A stretch of DNA of 64,000 bases from Octopus vulgaris (GCA_951406725.2 OX597823.1:73284001-73348000), one strand, 5' to 3'; shown: positions 6,652 to 64,000, numbered from the stretch's first letter. Notes: generated from the sequence alone by a model not told the origin. A program made the numbers and translations.

Positions 6652-8642
6652 CTGAAAATGAAGATGGCATCACCATACTCCCAACTTGTTCAGTTTTATT
6701 CACATTATTTGCGATAATGATCCGCTAACCCGCTGGAACTTTCTACTCACATTTGTCTGTTGCCTTATCTCACACATCATAAGTTCGCTTCTACTTTCAA
6801 ATGACTTTCAACTGCACAATGCTGAAATGCGGTATAGATTAAAATTCATCTCTAATCGTAGCTCGCATTACGTTTTGCTGCAAAATCATAAAACATATTT
6901 TCATCATTACTTCTTTATCTATCATTAATTGACAAATCACGTTCATACATAAGTTCAATAACAAAATGAAGTGCTTTTATATGTATGAATTTACGGCGAT
7001 GTATGTGTTTTTGCATATAAATGTTTTGCTTTGTGTGTATATATATATATATATATATAGACACGTACATACACACACAGACACACACAGATACACACAC
7101 ACACACACACACACACACACACATATATATGTATATCTATCTATCTATATATATATACATATATATATATATATACGTATATTGAAACTAATATTTTGCC
7201 AAGAGAGTTGTAAAAGGTTTTTAATTGCTAAACACTTAAAGCAAAAATACAGTTGTATTATAAACACGGCATGTGTGAATGTCTGTGTGTACGTGTATAT
7301 CTACATGTGAACATGTTTGTGTGTGAGAGAGAGAGAGAGAGAGAGAGAGAGAGAGAGAGAGAGAAAATATCACATGTCTTGATCAGCACAAAACAGCAAG
7401 ATCTAGTTAAATATATGGAAAGCTTTTTTCCTAATAGTGAATAAGGCTACCGCAATGCTGGTAACTCTTCGGTGTCTTTGCCGTGGCTAGCATTTCCTCC
7501 CCACGGCGCTTAGCTTGTAAGTTTTGTTTATGTGTGACAGCAGACTAAACCGTCTACGGTGTCTTATCAACCACAGTCACTTTCAACTGGTTTTGGCTGT
7601 CATTGCTATCTCTTCAGTATCTTTTACCAGCCGTTTTGGCTTCTAAACCGATCTGGCTGGAAGACTACAACAGCCGATATCAAAAGAGAATGTGGCTGCT
7701 TGCCAACATTTGACAAAAGCTGCATCAACGAATTCATGATATTTACATGGACACACATACACTAACATATACGCACGCATGCACACAGACACAGGCACAT
7801 ACATACACACACACACACATACATACACACATATATATGTGTGTGCAACGTTATAGCTGCTTGCAACGTTATACTGTTAAGGAAAATTACAGTCGTCAAC
7901 TAAACTTGACTAAGTGTATGAATAACACATAGATTGCTAGAAATAGGAACCAACATGGTCCGATATATATATACATACATACACACACGCGCGCAAACAC
8001 ACACACACACACATACACACACACACACACACATACACACACACACACACACACACACACACACACACACACACACACACACACACATATATATATATAT
8101 ATATATTCTTTTTTTTTTTCGAAACGCGTAGTGGATGAAACAGGGACAACTGAAGAAGGGGAATATTCCTCATGTTGTATGTCTTGTACTCTGTTTTTTT
8201 CGTTGTCTGAAAAAAAGTTCGTTTCTGTGTTTTTGTTTTTATGTTTTCGTTTCTCATTGCGTTCTACGTATTTTTTATGTCTTGTACCCATATATGCATG
8301 TATATATATACATATATATGTAGGTGTGTACATATATGTTTGTATATATGTATACATTTATATATTATTTATATTATATATATATATATATATATATATA
8401 TGTGTGTGTGTGTGTGTATGTATGTATATATAAAAAAGATGAGGATCGAAATCCTTCAAAGGGTTGTCAAACATCAAAGTCCACCGCTACAAACCAAGCA
8501 AAGAATATATATAAAATATATATTCAGTATTTGCAAAATCAATAAATGAAGTATAAGATTGATAATGTTTTAATTTGATCGACTTTACTTTTTATTGAAA
8601 CTGCCTCTATTGTTATTGTTTTTATATCTCCTAACATAGGAT

Positions 8643-9046
8643 GACGGCGAGCTGGCCGAATCGTTTGCACGCCGGGCGAAATACTTAGCGCTACGTTCTG
8701 AGTTCAAAATCCGCCGAGGATGAATTTGCCTTTCTTCCTTTCGGATTCGATTAAATAAGTATCACTTTCGCACTGGGGTCAATCTAATCGACTTAATCCC
8801 TTCCCCCAAGCTGCCTTTGTGGCAAAAAGTTGAAATCATTATTTCTCTTAATATAAAAAAGGCGGCGAGCTGGCAAAGTCCTTAGCACGCCGAACAAAAT
8901 GATCTCAAAATGGACACAAATTCAATCGCTTTTGCCTTTCGTTCTTTTGGCGTCATAACATAAGAGCCAGTTAAATACTGGGGTCGATGTACTCGACTTA
9001 ACCTCACCCTTGAAATTGCTGGCCTTGTGCTAAAGTCTGCAACCAT
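8643..9046 (+). mobile_element. Two tandem tRNA-derived SINE copies (family A)
   Basis: Heads GRCGGCGAGCTGGC at 8643 and 8861, B-box-like GAGTTCAAA, central GCCTTTC...GGGGTCGAT block shared with the best copy at 36310-36541. Confidence 0.8.
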
Positions 9047-9426
9047 CATTACCTCCGCCTTAGCAAAGGCGGAGGTACTGTTTTCAGTTGCGTTTTTTTG
9101 TTTGCTAGTTTGTCCGTGGACAAGATATATCAAGAACTGCTGGATGGATTCGGATGAAACCTTCAGGGATATTTAGCTTCGTGACTCGTACGAACTGATT
9201 AGATTTTGGGATCGATCAAGTACCGGGCAAGGATTCTGGACTATTTTCCTGTTTTTTTTTTTACTTAATTTTTGAGAGCGGTCGGGTTCATTTTTAGTAT
9301 TCACGCTTGTGAGAACAGTCGAGCTTATTTCAGATTATTCTCATTTTAAACATCATCTCTGGCTAATCGTTGACAGGACGTTGATGCTGCCTCGGTGGAG
9401 GTCTGCTCTCTCTGGGTGCTCTTGTT
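9047..9426 (+). mobile_element. Non-autonomous Helentron/HINE (DINE-1-like) element
   Basis: 5' palindromic subterminal repeat ACCTCCGCC-TTAGCAAA-GGCGGAGGT; 3' subTIR GGTGGAGGT followed by a short GCTCTC-TCT-GGGTGC hairpin and T-rich end. Confidence 0.7.
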
Positions 9427-9446
9427 ATTATTATTTCTTTTACCAA

Positions 9447-9615
9447 AGCAGCGAGATGGCAAAATCCTTAGAACGCCGGACGAAATACACAACAGCATTT
9501 TGTTCTGAATCCAAATTCTGCCGAGGTTGACGTTGACTTTCATCCCTTTGGGATGATGTAATCGACTTAGCCGCTCCCCAGAATTGCTGTCCTTGTGCTA
9601 AAATTTGAAATCATT
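9447..9615 (+). mobile_element. SINE family A, degenerate copy
   Basis: AGCAGCGAGATGGC head, CCGAGGTTGAC, CTTTCATCC and GATGTAATCGACTT blocks. Confidence 0.7.
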
Positions 9616-9934
9616 ATTATTGTTATCATTATTACTACTTTTATTATTAGCAATATTGTACAAATACGATGCATTCTCTCCGTCACCATCATCATTGCTA
9701 CCACCCTTACTCCTATCCAAACCTATTTCTAACTCATCTTTCAAATAGTGGCCAAGCAGAGAAATATGTAGCAAAACTATACATACATACAATTTTTATT
9801 ACATATTCCTCTTATATATTTTTACTATTAACTTTGTTAAGGTTAATATCTAACTATTAACACCGAAACCAACATATTTTACCTTCTATATGTATCTTTC
9901 GCATTATAATATTCTAATGTGTTTGTGTCTGTTT

Positions 9935-10280
9935 TCTACTCTTTCTTTTACTAGTTTCAGTCATTTGATTGCGGCCATGCTGGAGCCCCGCCTTTTAGTC
10001 GAATAGATCTACCCCAGGACTTATTCTTCGTAAGCCTAGTACTTATTCTATCGGTCTCTTTTGCCGACCCGCCAAGTTACGCGGACCTAAACACACGAAC
10101 ATCGGGGGCATAAACACAGACACACAAACACACACATAGGCTTCTTTCTGGTTTCTGTCTACTAAATCCACTCACAAGGCTTAGTAAGAATAAGTCCTTG
10201 GGTGGGTTTGCTCAACTAAAGGTGGTGTCCAGTATGGTTGCAGTCAAATGACTGAAACAAATAATAGCGTAAAAGAATAT
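9935..10280. mobile_element. SINE family B 3' part (-) followed by an inverted 3' fragment (+)
   Basis: 9935-10182 matches 26931-27400; 10185-10280 is the reverse complement of the same tail (CAGTCAAATGACTGAAACAA). Confidence 0.8.
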
Positions 10281-10546
10281 ATATATACGAGAACTATTGT
10301 AGTTCGCTTGAAGCATTGTATATTGTTTGTAAATAATAAACTATTTTGAATGACACAACAATGTACTATAATACAAACAATGGACTATAATAATTGTAAT
10401 TTAATCATTCATAGTCTGATATGATATTTCGGCATAAAATTCCTTCATCAGATATCCCTAGGAATTGATGGAGTCGCTGCTATAATCGGTTTTCCAACGG
10501 CTTTTCTTTGTTTTTTTTTTCGGAAGCGTCTTAGCAGTGGACTCAC

Positions 10547-62430: not shown

Positions 62431-62488
62431 ATCCCAGATCCGGATTTCTGGATCAGTATAAAAACATACTCGGTCTCATCAGTGTGAT
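62431..62488 (-). ncRNA. Type I hammerhead, slightly degenerate
   Basis: ATCACA-CTGATGA-GACCGAGTAT..ATACTGATCCA-GAAA-TCCGGA-TC-TGGGAT. Confidence 0.6.
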
Positions 62489-62537
62489 ATACACAGGTAA
62501 TACATATATGTATATATATATATATATATATATATGA

Positions 62538-63323
62538 GGACATCTCCGCTGTCTGTTCCGATTAATATTTGCGGGGGGAAATCATCGTTCCCATCTCGAG
62601 CCTTGCGTGATACGCAGGGAACCGGGTTCGTGGGTAGCAACCCGTCATCAGTGTGTGATAATCATGTGCTAGTAATGAACTTTCCTTCCACACGCAAAAA
62701 TACTATATGATTTTTCCAGTGACACACTGTCGCTGATCTCAAAAAAGGAGAAATACGCAATATTAAATCTCTGACCGAGAAGTAAACAGTAGCAGCACGG
62801 AATCGTAAAATATAATTGCCAACTAAACGTGGGGGACCCATAGAAGACGATGCTACTGTTGTTTTTAGCCCCAGGAGGACCTCTCCTCCAGCTGGATAAC
62901 GCCACACTGTCTGTCTGTGTCCGATTACTATTTGCGAGGGAAAATCATCTTTCCCATCTCTAGCCTTACATGATACACACAGACCCTGGTTTCTGAGTAG
63001 TAGCCCATCGTTAGTTTGTGATATGGCTTTTCCGAGTTTTCATCGCTAGTTCGTGTTTATCACACACTGATGACGGGTTACTACCCAGAAACCCGGGTCT
63101 GTGTGTATCACGTAAGGCTAGAGATGGGAACGATAATTCCCCCTCGCAAATACTAATCGGACACAGACAATGTGTCGTTCGCCAGCTGGGGGAGATGTCC
63201 TCCTGGGGCTAAAAACAACAGTATCATCGACGTCTATGAGACTGCTACATTTAGTTGGCAGTGATATTTTATGATTCTGTACTGCTACTGTTTACTTTCT
63301 CGCTCAAAGATTTAATGTTGCCT
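62538..63323. mobile_element. Second, older ~363-bp hammerhead monomer family in inverted arrangement
   Basis: Period 363 (62558/62921) in the left arm with two decayed minus-strand HHRs (~62610-62660, ~62975-63022); right arm ~63035-63323 is inverted. Confidence 0.85.
63061..63105 (+). ncRNA. Type I hammerhead ribozyme, intact core
   Basis: CACACA-CTGATGA-CGGGT-TACT-ACCCA-GAAA-CCCGGG-TC-TGTGTG; predicted cut after C63099. Confidence 0.85.
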
Positions 63324-63360
63324 ATATATATGTGTGTGTGTAGAGAGAGAGAGAGAGAGA

Positions 63361-63527
63361 GAATAAAGAGTTATGAATGGTACAACAATGAACTATAATA
63401 CAAACAATGGGCTATATACTTGTTGTAATTTAGTCATCTATCAGACTATGGATGACTAAATTACAACAGGTATATAGCCCATTGTCTGTATTATAGTGCT
63501 TGTTGTACCATACAGAACTTTTTATTC
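63361..63527. repeat. Long hairpin/palindrome with ~80-bp arms
   Basis: GAATAAAGAGTT...TTAGTCATCTAT-CAGACT-ATGGATGACTAA...AACTTTTTATTC. Confidence 0.9.
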
Positions 63528-63582
63528 TTTGCAAACAATACACAATGCTTCAAGCGAACTTCAATACTCTCCTATATATACA

Positions 63583-63652
63583 TAGCGTATTGGTTATCCA
63601 CATAGTGGTTTATCCCTAGCGTATTAGTTATCCACATAGTGGTTTATCCCTA
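63583..63652. repeat. 34-bp tandem duplication
   Basis: TAGCGTATTRGTTATCCACATAGTGGTTTATCCC x2. Confidence 0.9.
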
Positions 63653-64000
63653 AATATACACATGTATAAATATATGTGTATATATATATATATATATATA
63701 TATATATATATATATATATATATATATATATACACTTGTGTTATAAGATATGGATTCAGACAATCGTGTGGCTAGTCCAGAAAGCTCCCCTTACGGTCCC
63801 ACCGTACAATCCACATAGTAAATTTAGCATAGCGTAGAGTGTCAATCGAGATGAGGAGCTTATAAACTATAAGTCCTAGGATTTATAAGAAGTGAATATA
63901 TATATTTATTTAACAACGTGACATCCCTAGGTTTACAACCGTTTCTCAAACTTCTAGAGATAGGGGACATAGAGAATAGTAATCCTAACAATATTTGACC

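What the first reader, a model, noticed from the sequence alone, without database searches (positions are those of the whole stretch)
8119..63945. Window-wide hammerhead diversity with family-specific palindromic stem III
Seen: about 16 complete, degenerate or half HHR motifs in 64 kb. The segment between GAAA and the cleavage site is usually self-complementary but differs by family: CGCG (8119, half), CG/AACGTT (13552, 49874, 54805), CTAATAG (20943), CAATTG (33664, 34800), CAGCTG (54981), CCGG (61507, 61991), TCCGGA (62431), CCCGGG (63061). Established: minimal PLE HHRs have been proposed to cleave as dimers via palindromic stem III. Inference: the different palindromes could act as a self-recognition code so that each family dimerises only with itself, and this genome may hold a very large unannotated HHR population.
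Basis: partly seen in the sequence, partly recalled or inferred. Interest (0 to 1): 0.72.

Follow-up and report, generated by a model that had tools for sequence, protein, structure and literature searches.

The report
Penelope-type hammerhead repeats, shared palindromes
This stretch of an animal genome holds copies of nine small mobile repeat families carrying hammerhead-ribozyme motifs of the known Penelope/retrozyme kind, whose short palindromic third stem would let two copies pair to cut; unrelated families share the same palindromes, so these are unlikely to be a private recognition code.

Summary
A full descriptor (core, three helices, palindromic helix III) finds 5 complete motifs in the window against 0.05 in shuffles. 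Of the 12 listed sites, 11 lie in high-copy repeat families (A-H, J) whose copies carry a hammerhead-like motif. Site 8119 does not.

These are minimal type-I hammerheads with a loop-less palindromic helix III. That kind is already described for Penelope-like elements and animal retrozymes. The copies show Penelope insertion marks: head-to-head 5'-truncated pairs and (TA)n targets. The scan found the same kind before, also in this genome.

The claim of a large unannotated population holds. There are 13 complete motifs in a random 600 kb against 0.3 in shuffles, roughly 60,000 genome-wide, and Rfam listed no hammerhead family in its fully listed searches.

A strict "self-recognition code" is not supported:
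- ACGU is shared by three families of similar age.
- ACAAUUGU and ACAGCUGU recur with unrelated helices II.
- The CCGG-type palindromes of families A, B and C cross-pair.

Selection for self-complementarity is supported by a compensatory UCCGGA to UCUAGA subfamily switch.

Two young families (G, H) were founded with non-canonical cores (CCGACGA, CUGUAGA), and E probably was (CCGAUGA). So cleavage is probably dispensable for spread.

No cleavage or expression was shown.

The parts
61991..62033 (+). Family A hammerhead, complete. Helix I 6 bp, CUGACGA, helix II 4 bp, GAA, ACCGGU, C17.
61507..61549 (-). Family A hammerhead, complete; mirror copy of 61991-62033.
61332..62208 (.). Family A twin-arm (head-to-head) insertion. 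The two arms are 96.4% alike over 882 aligned bases. (TA)n lies on both sides.
   Evidence: unit of 360 nt from the spacing of genomic tandem copies
63061..63105 (+). Family B hammerhead, complete by the descriptor. ACCCGGGU, helix I 6 bp, C.A in place of G10.1-C11.1.
62976..63020 (-). Family B hammerhead, decayed (CTAACGA, CCAGGG).
62613..62657 (-). Family B hammerhead, decayed (CGAAC, CCCGGT).
62753..63325 (.). Family B head-to-head pair, 81% alike.
62431..62488 (-). Family C hammerhead. Core and AUCCGGAU are intact; helix II has decayed in this copy.
49874..49920 (+). Family D hammerhead. CUGAUGA, bulged A, helix II 5 bp, ACGU, U17. Helix I is weakened by one change in this copy. It lies in the tail of a composite repeat: a head with a B-box-like GTTCGATTCC, then (AAT)n, then the tail.
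49552..49598 (-). Family D inverted, 5'-truncated partner. The motif has decayed (CTTAATGA, TAAACGTT).
54983..55029 (-). Family E hammerhead-like motif, complete in this copy (ACAGCUGU). The family's ancestral core is most likely CCGAUGA.
33665..33753 (-). Family F hammerhead, complete. 60-nt helix II segment (8 pairs at its base by the descriptor), ACAAUUGU, helix I 5 bp. The element's 3' end abuts (TA)n.
34771..34816 (+). Family F 5'-truncated inverted partner. Only the 3' half of the motif is present.
13552..13585 (+). Family G hammerhead-like motif with core CCGACGA. This copy has also lost one A of GAAA.
54805..54839 (-). Family H hammerhead-like motif with core CUGUAGA. It has the same helix II (GAGC/GCUC) and the same ACGU as family G.
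20876..20959 (+). Family J hammerhead. The core is mutated to CTGAATA in this copy. Sister copies mostly carry an intact core. Near-palindrome ACUAAUAGU.
8120..8131 (+). Family I, listed as a 'half motif'. Rejected as a hammerhead.

Best explanation
The listed sites are copies of nine non-coding, high-copy repeat families that carry minimal type-I hammerhead motifs with a loop-less palindromic helix III, the kind known from Penelope-like elements and animal retrozymes; they are likely spread by Penelope-type reverse transcriptases and are predicted to cleave, where the core is intact, only as double hammerheads.

Shown here:
- the motifs and their excess over chance;
- their membership in repeat families with hundreds to thousands of candidate places;
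- 5' truncation, head-to-head pairs and (TA)n flanks;
- tandem 360-nt arrays of family A;
- intact RT plus GIY-YIG reading frames elsewhere in the genome;
- a compensatory change that keeps helix III palindromic.

Inferred:
- Two motifs pair their A15.1..U16.1 segments into one continuous helix III, in one transcript for tandem copies or in trans for solo copies.
- The motif descends from the terminal repeats of Penelope-like elements.
- In families founded with CCGACGA or CUGUAGA, and probably CCGAUGA, cleavage is weak or lost and is not needed for spread.
- The variety of palindromes reflects drift under a constraint of self-complementarity, not a recognition code.
For: Excess over chance:
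- 5 motifs against 0.05 in the window.
- 13 against 0.3 in 60 random 10-kb stretches.
- 25 against 0.8 when helix III is left free, with 13 of the 25 perfect palindromes.

Family membership. Candidates of the first look, with 40 scored in each search: A 1273, B 2251, C 889, D 873, E 3589, F 1282, G 1011, H 3314, J 1128.

Copies passing the full descriptor:
- A 8 of 10; B 9 of 38; C 6 of 31; D 13 of 43; F 22 of 28.
- J 5 of 24, with a 9-nt helix III that leaves its middle base unpaired also allowed for this family.
- E 8 of 31, or 21 of 31 if CCGA is allowed.
- G 1 of 31, or 22 of 31 if CCGA is allowed.
- H 0 of 31, or 22 of 31 if CUGU is allowed.

Penelope marks:
- Inverted pairs in the window at 61332-62208, 62753-63325, 49507-49614/49858-49966 and 33628-33720/34761-34853.
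- Minus-then-plus pairs a few hundred bases apart recur in the genome hits of A, B, C, F and J. Copies in both orientations within one locus occur for D.
- (TA)n lies at element ends.
- These features, together with hammerheads in the terminal repeats, are those described for Penelope-like elements (PMC8557442, PMC4209133, passages read).
- In vitro, one Penelope-like protein cuts and extends both DNA strands at AT-rich sites (PMC11167929, passages read).

Tandem copies: family A copies lie 360 nt apart on contig C2.

Possible mobilisers: 148 of 150 scored GIY-YIG places pass the Pfam cut-off, many within 781-aa open frames. One such frame has RVT_1 (28.9 bits, cut-off 29.6) plus a C-terminal GIY-YIG (30.6 bits, cut-off 22.6).

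Helix III under constraint: in family C, UCCGGA occurs in 10 exact copies and UCUAGA in 5 exact copies plus 4 variants. All 9 UCUAGA-type copies share a helix II variant. The intermediate UCUGGA (4 copies) still pairs through G.U.

Against: - No cleavage, circular RNA or expression was shown.
- Rfam's hammerhead models did not report these motifs in the fully listed searches.
- Families B and C carry an extra A between helix II and GAAA, and B has C.A at 10.1/11.1. I did not find either feature described in the passages I read.
- Families G and H have non-canonical cores in 29 of 31 sampled copies each. E has CCG in 15, CTG in 11, CCA in 3 and TTG in 2 of 31. The E sample is biased towards the window's own CTG state.
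- No RT or GIY-YIG frame lies in the window.
- The one intact Penelope-like family examined (L339) has no C[CT]G[AT]NGA core in the 1.2 kb after its reading frame, a stretch that covers most of its 3' repeat, and no likeness to the window. The partner enzyme is therefore not identified.
- Unconstrained dimer folding gave exactly helix II plus an intermolecular helix III for family E only. A, B, C, D and F gave other pairings, though in C, D and F the palindrome pairs between the two strands within a longer duplex.
Confidence: 0.8

Rival explanations
1. Self-recognition code. Each family's palindrome would make its RNA dimerise, and so cleave, only with its own kind. This would keep families functionally insulated.
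For: In the duplex-energy table the homodimer is the most stable partner in every row, and most cross pairs are weaker than -3 kcal/mol. Palindromes of unequal length cannot close both A15.1-U16.1 pairs in register. A subfamily of C changed its palindrome by a compensatory double change.
Against: ACGU is shared by D, G and H, all at 93-98% identity to the window copies and hence of similar age. ACAAUUGU occurs with three unrelated helices II (family F; loci L295 and L318; locus L309), and ACAGCUGU with two (family E; locus L322). A, B and C lie within 2 kb of each other and cross-pair at -6.7 to -8.8 kcal/mol. ACGU gives only -1.7 kcal/mol, too weak to discriminate. In the passages read, dimer cleavage is described between tandem copies of one RNA, which needs no code (PMC6155905). 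That any two different palindromes pair poorly is true by construction.
Confidence: 0.1
2. Non-catalytic tag. In many of these families the hammerhead-like fold would be kept as a structure, for example one bound by the Penelope-type enzyme or one holding two RNAs together. Self-cleavage would be lost or irrelevant.
For: Families G and H are young (93-98% identity) and abundant (1011 and 3314 candidates). Each carries a substitution at an otherwise conserved core position in 29 of 31 copies, while 22 of 31 copies keep helices I and II, GAAA and a palindromic helix III. Family E (3589 candidates) most likely started as CCGAUGA. In vitro, catalytic mutants of a Penelope-like element's hammerhead did not change insertion (PMC11167929, passage read). 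Naiad elements thrive without canonical hammerheads (PMC8557442, passage read).
Against: Families A, D, F and J keep the canonical core in most sampled copies. Copies of young families keep whatever their founder had, so retention of helices in copies is not evidence of selection. That U4-to-C and A6-to-U abolish activity is recalled from older mutational work and was not checked in a paper here.
Confidence: 0.3
3. Chance matches to a short, degenerate pattern in AT-rich, repeat-rich DNA.
For: Some loose matches are chance. The loose pattern expects 3.5 matches. The motif at 10427 has poor helices and no motif-bearing sister. Site 8119 failed.
Against: Full-descriptor counts are 43 to 100 times the shuffle means. 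The motifs recur in sister copies across the genome.
Confidence: 0.02

Closest known systems
Minimal hammerheads of Penelope-like elements (Cervera and de la Pena 2014, PMC4209133, passages read; Lunse, Weinberg and Breaker 2017, not held, known only through the review PMC6765202)
   Same: Type-I topology. Helix III is reduced to a short palindrome without a loop. [quoted passage not shown] Many divergent sequence families occur within one genome, with massive copy numbers. The proposed action is as dimers.
   Different: No copy in the window sits in the terminal repeat of a coding element; all are non-autonomous. Families B and C have an extra A before GAAA, and B has C.A at 10.1/11.1. Families G and H, and probably E, have non-canonical cores.
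Animal non-LTR retrozymes (Cervera and de la Pena 2020, PMC7229834, passages read; Li, Clavereau and Pollet 2026, bioRxiv 10.64898/2026.07.22.740005, abstract and section 14 read)
   Same: Family A is a 360-nt non-coding unit with one type-I hammerhead. It occurs in tandem arrays, within the published 170-400 nt range. A link to Penelope-like elements has been proposed.
   Different: Most families here occur as solo or head-to-head copies, not arrays. Circular RNAs were not tested.
Double hammerhead of newt satellite 2 and avocado sunblotch viroid (Forster et al. 1988, as described in PMC6155905 and PMC4209133)
   Same: An unstable helix III is replaced by an extended helix III formed between two motifs.
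   Different: There the two motifs are neighbours in one multimeric RNA. Here many copies have no same-strand neighbour.
Schistosome Sm-alpha / Sj-alpha SINE-like elements with a hammerhead (as summarised in PMC6765202)
   Same: Family D combines a head with a polymerase-III-type B-box-like motif and a tail that carries a hammerhead.
   Different: The tRNA-like nature of D's head is my reading of one motif only. ARAGORN and Rfam did not call it. D has an internal (AAT)n and Penelope-type inverted partners.
Retroviral dimer initiation sites: 6-nt palindromic loops that bias which genomes pair (recalled, not checked here)
   Same: A short self-complementary RNA segment that could decide which RNAs pair.
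   Different: It is a kissing loop in a packaging signal, not a ribozyme helix. No evidence here shows that pairing selects partners.

Membership tests
Hammerhead ribozyme, type I (Rfam RF00163 and related models) | Match to the curated covariance model | tested here: not met
   0 matches at gathering score in the window. No hammerhead family among all 72 matches at E<=10 in 61300-63400, nor among the 3 matches at E<=1 in 49450-50150. In the whole-window E-value search only the best 150 of 287 matches were listed, and none was a hammerhead. The models expect a helix III hairpin.
Hammerhead ribozyme, type I | Conserved core CUGANGA ... GAA ... UH in the order helix I, core, helix II, GAA, helix III, cleavage site, helix I | tested here: met
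   Met by 5 window copies and by most sampled copies of A, B, C, D, F and J. Not met by G (CCGACGA, 29 of 31) or H (CUGUAGA, 29 of 31). E is mixed.
Hammerhead ribozyme, type I | Self-cleavage at H17 | not testable with these tools
   No listed run is on record as RNA, and only assembled contigs were available.
Minimal hammerhead of Penelope-like elements | Helix III reduced to a palindrome (15.2-16.2 and any loop 3 self-complementary) | tested here: met
   Perfect palindromes of 4-8 nt in A-H. J has a 9-nt near-palindrome. With helix III left free, 13 of 25 hits are perfect palindromes against 0.05 expected.
Minimal hammerhead of Penelope-like elements | [quoted passage not shown] | tested here: inconclusive
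   A bulged A followed by G..C is seen in D and G. E has the bulged A but a G.U pair plus an extra G. A has G-C without a bulge. B has C.A. C has G-C plus an extra A on the 3' side.
Minimal hammerhead of Penelope-like elements | Location in the terminal repeat of an element that encodes RT plus GIY-YIG endonuclease | tested here: not met
   None of the 113 scanned reading frames (of 175 frames of at least 75 aa) shows RT or GIY-YIG. Family F's continuation ends about 295 nt in. The one intact element examined (L339) shows no core in the 1.2 kb after its reading frame. Only one coding family was examined.
Penelope-type insertion | 5' truncation, an inverted 5'-truncated copy at the 5' end, and a bias for (TA)n | tested here: met
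   Four inverted pairs in the window. Recurrent minus/plus pairs in genome hits. Variable 5' starts. (TA)n at element ends.
Animal non-LTR retrozyme | Tandem repeats of about 170-400 nt, each with a type-I hammerhead | tested here: met
   Shown for family A only: copies 360 nt apart on contig C2. In the window each arm holds about 1.2 units with one motif.
Animal non-LTR retrozyme | Expression as linear and circular RNA of unit length | not testable with these tools
   Contigs cannot show RNA ends or circles, and the RNA nature of the runs is a guess.

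The most novel reading that the evidence does not exclude
The palindromic helix III would be a dimer-linkage element. It would hold two RNAs of one mobilisation group together on a dimeric Penelope-type enzyme that primes on both cut DNA strands, so that each insertion is written as two head-to-head arms. Palindrome classes (the CCGG type, ACGU, and ACA..UGU) would then mark which RNAs can ride together, or with which autonomous element. Catalysis would be secondary, which would explain thriving families with dead cores.
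Probability: 0.08. Interest if true: 0.7.

Novelty: new member of a known kind. Interest (0 to 1): 0.3.

Why it matters
It shows that standard RNA-family annotation reported none of these ribozyme-like motifs in the searches whose matches were fully listed, while a random sample suggests tens of thousands of them in one animal genome. It supplies a set of families of graded age for asking what the hammerhead does for Penelope-type elements. Two points bear on open questions. A compensatory switch of the palindrome argues that self-pairing of helix III is under selection. Young, abundant families founded with altered cores argue, in vivo, for what one in-vitro study found: that cleavage is not required for insertion. 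Neither point changes the classification, which is a known kind of element.

Tried and rejected
- Rfam at gathering and E-value thresholds found no hammerhead. The many miRNA-like matches are microsatellites and inverted repeats.
- ARAGORN and Rfam did not call the head of family D a tRNA. Its tRNA-like nature remains my reading of one motif.
- Sequencing runs: no RNA holder is listed. Four runs guessed to be RNA, held only as contigs, cover parts of 61300-63350 including family A's motif, but they cannot show ends, strand or circles. I draw no conclusion on expression.
- Unconstrained dimer folding gave helix II plus an intermolecular helix III and nothing else for family E only. The other five sequences gave other pairings, though in C, D and F the palindrome pairs between the two strands within a longer duplex. 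Nearest-neighbour folding does not model the core, so this neither supports nor refutes the model.
- Search for an autonomous partner. There are no RT or GIY-YIG frames in the window. The flanks of 8 GIY-YIG loci match the window families only through (TA)n and unrelated insertions of H and I (that output was cut, and dust filtering was off by my mistake). Family F's 'internal' continuation is shared for only about 295 nt. The intact 781-aa element has no core-like heptamer in the 1.2 kb after its reading frame.
- The motif at 10427-10451 (-), from the loose scan, has poor helices II and I, and its repeat partner at 63439-63583 has no such motif. I judged it chance.
- Lunse et al. 2017 (PMC5785218) is not held. 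What it says on trans or hetero-dimers could bear on the code idea, and I could not read it. One paper search failed on a too-short term and was re-sent with other terms.
- I found no paper proposing a family-specific helix III code. The searches were made; I read listings and passages only. This is not proof of absence.

Full report
**Setting.** The window is G000:C10:73284001-73348000 of a 2.8-Gb, 227-contig genome. It has 31-39% G+C and is full of (TA)n and (CA)n microsatellites. These produce many sub-threshold miRNA-like Rfam matches. Of 175 reading frames of at least 75 aa, I scanned 113. None shows a reverse transcriptase or a GIY-YIG endonuclease; the only clear domain hits are a mariner/Mos1 transposase remnant at 56.0-56.9 kb.

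Pattern scans tell a different story. The loose pattern CTGANGA..GAAA occurs 14 times against 3.5 expected. I wrote a full descriptor: core, helix II of at least 3 bp with an optional 1-nt bulge on either side, GAA, A+Watson-Crick palindrome+U, H17, and helix I of at least 3 bp. It finds 5 complete motifs against a mean of 0.05 (max 2) in 200 dinucleotide-preserving shuffles.

To avoid circularity I also left helix III free, using stricter helices I and II, on the window plus 600 kb of random genome. That gave 13 palindromic, 3 hairpin and 9 other, against 0.05, 0.05 and 0.7 in shuffles. At least four of the 'other' group are palindromes one mutation away. So the motifs are real, and the self-complementary type dominates.

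**What the listed sites are.** I took about 170 bases around each listed site and searched the window's own genome. Every query hit a repeat family. Candidates of the first look, with 40 scored each time, were:

| Family | Candidates |
|---|---|
| A | 1273 |
| B | 2251 |
| C | 889 |
| D | 873 |
| E | 3589 |
| F | 1282 |
| G | 1011 |
| H | 3314 |
| I | 2236 |
| J | 1128 |

I aligned the 10-43 distinct copies recovered per family and tallied the core and helix III columns:

- **A** (61507-, 61991+): canonical, ACCGGU. 8 of 10 copies pass the full descriptor.
- **B** (63061+, with decayed copies at 62976- and 62613-): CUGAUGA in 29 of 38 copies; ACCCGGGU exact in 16 of 38. The remaining helix III variants are mostly single CpG-type changes. 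C.A replaces G10.1-C11.1.
- **C** (62431-): CUGAUGA in 22 of 31 copies; AUCCGGAU; an extra A before GAAA. Helix II has decayed in the window copy.
- **D** (49874+, with a decayed inverted partner at 49552-): CUGAUGA in 35 of 43 copies; bulged A; ACGU; U17. The typical copy has a 5-bp helix I, which the window copy has lost through one change.
- **E** (54983-): ACAGCUGU in 27 of 31 copies. The core is CCGATGA in 14, CTGATGA in 11, CCAATGA in 3, TTGATGA in 2 and CCGACGA in 1. The presence of both TG and CA derivatives points to an ancestral CpG, that is CCGAUGA. The sample is biased towards the window's own CTG state, and a separate CTG subfamily cannot be excluded.
- **F** (33665-; a 5'-truncated half at 34771+): CUGAUGA and ACAAUUGU each in 26 of 28 copies. 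The stretch between the core and GAA is 60 nt, with 8 pairs at its base by the descriptor.
- **G** (13552+): CCGACGA in 29 of 31 copies.
- **H** (54805-): CUGUAGA in 29 of 31 copies. It shares helix II (GAGC/GCUC) and ACGU with G.
- **J** (20876+): an old family at 77-83% identity. 16 of 24 copies carry CTGA[T/A]GA. By my reading of the alignment helix II is 9 bp. The near-palindrome ACUAAUAGU is exact in 14 of 24. The window copy's core is mutated.
- **I** (8120+): I saw no core in its aligned copies, and helix III is not palindromic in them. The window's ACGCGT occurs in 1 of 30. This site is not a hammerhead.

In total, 11 of the 12 listed sites are hammerhead or hammerhead-derived.

**What kind of element.** The copies carry the marks described for Penelope-like elements (PMC8557442, passages read). 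These marks are 5' truncation, an inverted 5'-truncated copy abutting the 5' end, and insertion into (TA)n.

- The window has four inverted pairs: 61332-62208 at 96.4%, 62753-63325 at 81%, 49507-49614 with 49858-49966 at 92.7%, and 33628-33720 with 34761-34853 at 94.6%.
- Minus-then-plus pairs a few hundred bases apart recur among the genome hits of A, B, C, F and J. For D, several loci hold copies in both orientations.
- The ends of A, E and F abut (TA)n.
- Family A also forms tandem arrays with a 360-nt period. That makes it an animal non-LTR retrozyme in the sense of PMC7229834.
- Family D is the tail of a composite repeat: a head with a B-box-like GTTCGATTCC, then (AAT)n, then the tail. 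Neither ARAGORN nor Rfam calls the head a tRNA.
- The genome holds many coding Penelope-like elements. 148 of 150 scored GIY-YIG places pass the Pfam cut-off, and many sit in 781-aa open frames. One such frame has RVT_1 plus a C-terminal GIY-YIG and lies between 456-nt direct repeats, ending in (TA)n.
- That particular family shows no hammerhead core in the 1.2 kb after its reading frame, which covers most of its 3' repeat, and no likeness to the window. The enzyme that moves families A-J is therefore not identified.

Earlier notes of this scan reached the same classification for family A and for other hammerhead repeats in this same genome.

**How it most likely works.** A palindrome directly between A15.1 and U16.1 leaves no loop, so helix III cannot form within one motif. 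Two motifs can pair these segments into one continuous helix.

This is the double-hammerhead arrangement, established for newt satellite and viroid RNAs and proposed for Penelope minimal hammerheads (PMC6155905, PMC4209133, PMC6765202, passages read). For tandem copies the partner lies in the same transcript. For solo copies it would have to be another transcript.

That self-pairing matters is supported by family C. A subfamily defined by a helix II variant carries UCUAGA in place of UCCGGA (5 exact copies plus 4 variants, against 10 exact). This is a double change that keeps the palindrome, and the G.U-paired intermediate UCUGGA is present in 4 copies.

Families A and B have clearly related 3' halves and differ by a symmetric C..G insertion in the palindrome.

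All steps beyond the sequence features are inferred. No cleavage was measured.

**The 'code'.** Duplex energies of the bare helix III segments make the homodimer the best partner in every row, but this follows from their being different palindromes. Three things speak against a code:

- ACGU is used by D, G and H, three families of similar age.
- ACAAUUGU is used by F, by the family at L295 and L318, and at L309, with unrelated helices II. ACAGCUGU is used by E and at L322.
- A, B and C sit within 2 kb of one another and share a CCGG core that cross-pairs at -6.7 to -8.8 kcal/mol.

ACGU alone gives -1.7 kcal/mol. I therefore rate the strict code at about 0.1. The weaker statement, that palindromes drift by compensated steps and so come to differ between lineages, is supported.

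**Population size.** Sixty random 10-kb stretches hold 13 complete motifs in 11 stretches, against 0.3 in shuffles. That is about 22 per Mb, or roughly 60,000 in 2.8 Gb, with a Poisson 95% range of about 32,000-104,000. The window, at 78 per Mb, is richer because of the cluster at 61.5-63.1 kb.

Three of the 13 are family G copies whose CCGA has decayed to CTGA. So some 'canonical' motifs are products of CpG decay.

**Dead cores.** G and H are young (93-98% identity) and abundant, and their founders carried a change at an otherwise conserved core position. E probably did too. With that position relaxed, 22 of 31 G copies, 22 of 31 H copies and 21 of 31 E copies pass the rest of the descriptor.

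This fits two published points. Catalytic mutants of a Penelope-like element's hammerhead did not affect insertion in vitro (PMC11167929). Naiad elements spread without canonical hammerheads (PMC8557442). That these particular substitutions abolish activity is recalled, not checked.

**Verdict.** The finding is a real, dense and diverse set of Penelope/retrozyme-type minimal hammerheads. It is a new member of a known kind, and the scan has found it repeatedly in this genome. The self-recognition code is not supported.

Noticed in passing
window 56003-56893 (-): Remnant of a mariner/Mos1-type DNA transposon. Transposase_1 scores 85 bits, and HTH_48 31 bits, in adjacent broken frames.
   Followed up: no
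window 63360-63528, and 10277-10421: A 169-bp near-perfect hairpin-forming inverted repeat (89%) with a relative at 10277-10421. It is MITE-like and gives a sub-threshold MIR841 match.
   Followed up: no
window 58560-59029 and 26928-27401, with partial copies at 9929-10136, 16333-16566, 36120-36308, 41530-41760 and 46614-46834: An abundant repeat of about 470 bp, 70-87% alike between copies. It was not examined for a hammerhead or for its class.
   Followed up: no
L339 (G000:C16:20833800-20843700) 1130-6372: A young coding Penelope-like element. It has 456-nt direct terminal repeats, a 359-aa frame of no known family, and a 781-aa RT+GIY-YIG frame. Its 3' region holds tandem repeats of about 90 bp, each with a TGATGACGTC motif, but no CUGANGA-like core. 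It ends in (TA)n.
   Followed up: partly
families E and G; random loci L271, L287, L316: CpG decay turns CCGA cores into canonical CTGA cores. As a result, 3 of the 13 'complete' hammerheads in the random sample are decayed copies of a family whose founder had CCGACGA.
   Followed up: yes
window 49636-49990 (+): Composite repeat of family D: a head of about 80 nt with a B-box-like motif, an internal (AAT)n/(CAA)n tract, then the tail that bears the hammerhead. The same order is seen in many genomic copies.
   Followed up: partly
window 42981-43364: Direct tandem duplication of about 185 bp, 92% alike, inside the longest open frame of the window (43012-43665, no Pfam match).
   Followed up: no
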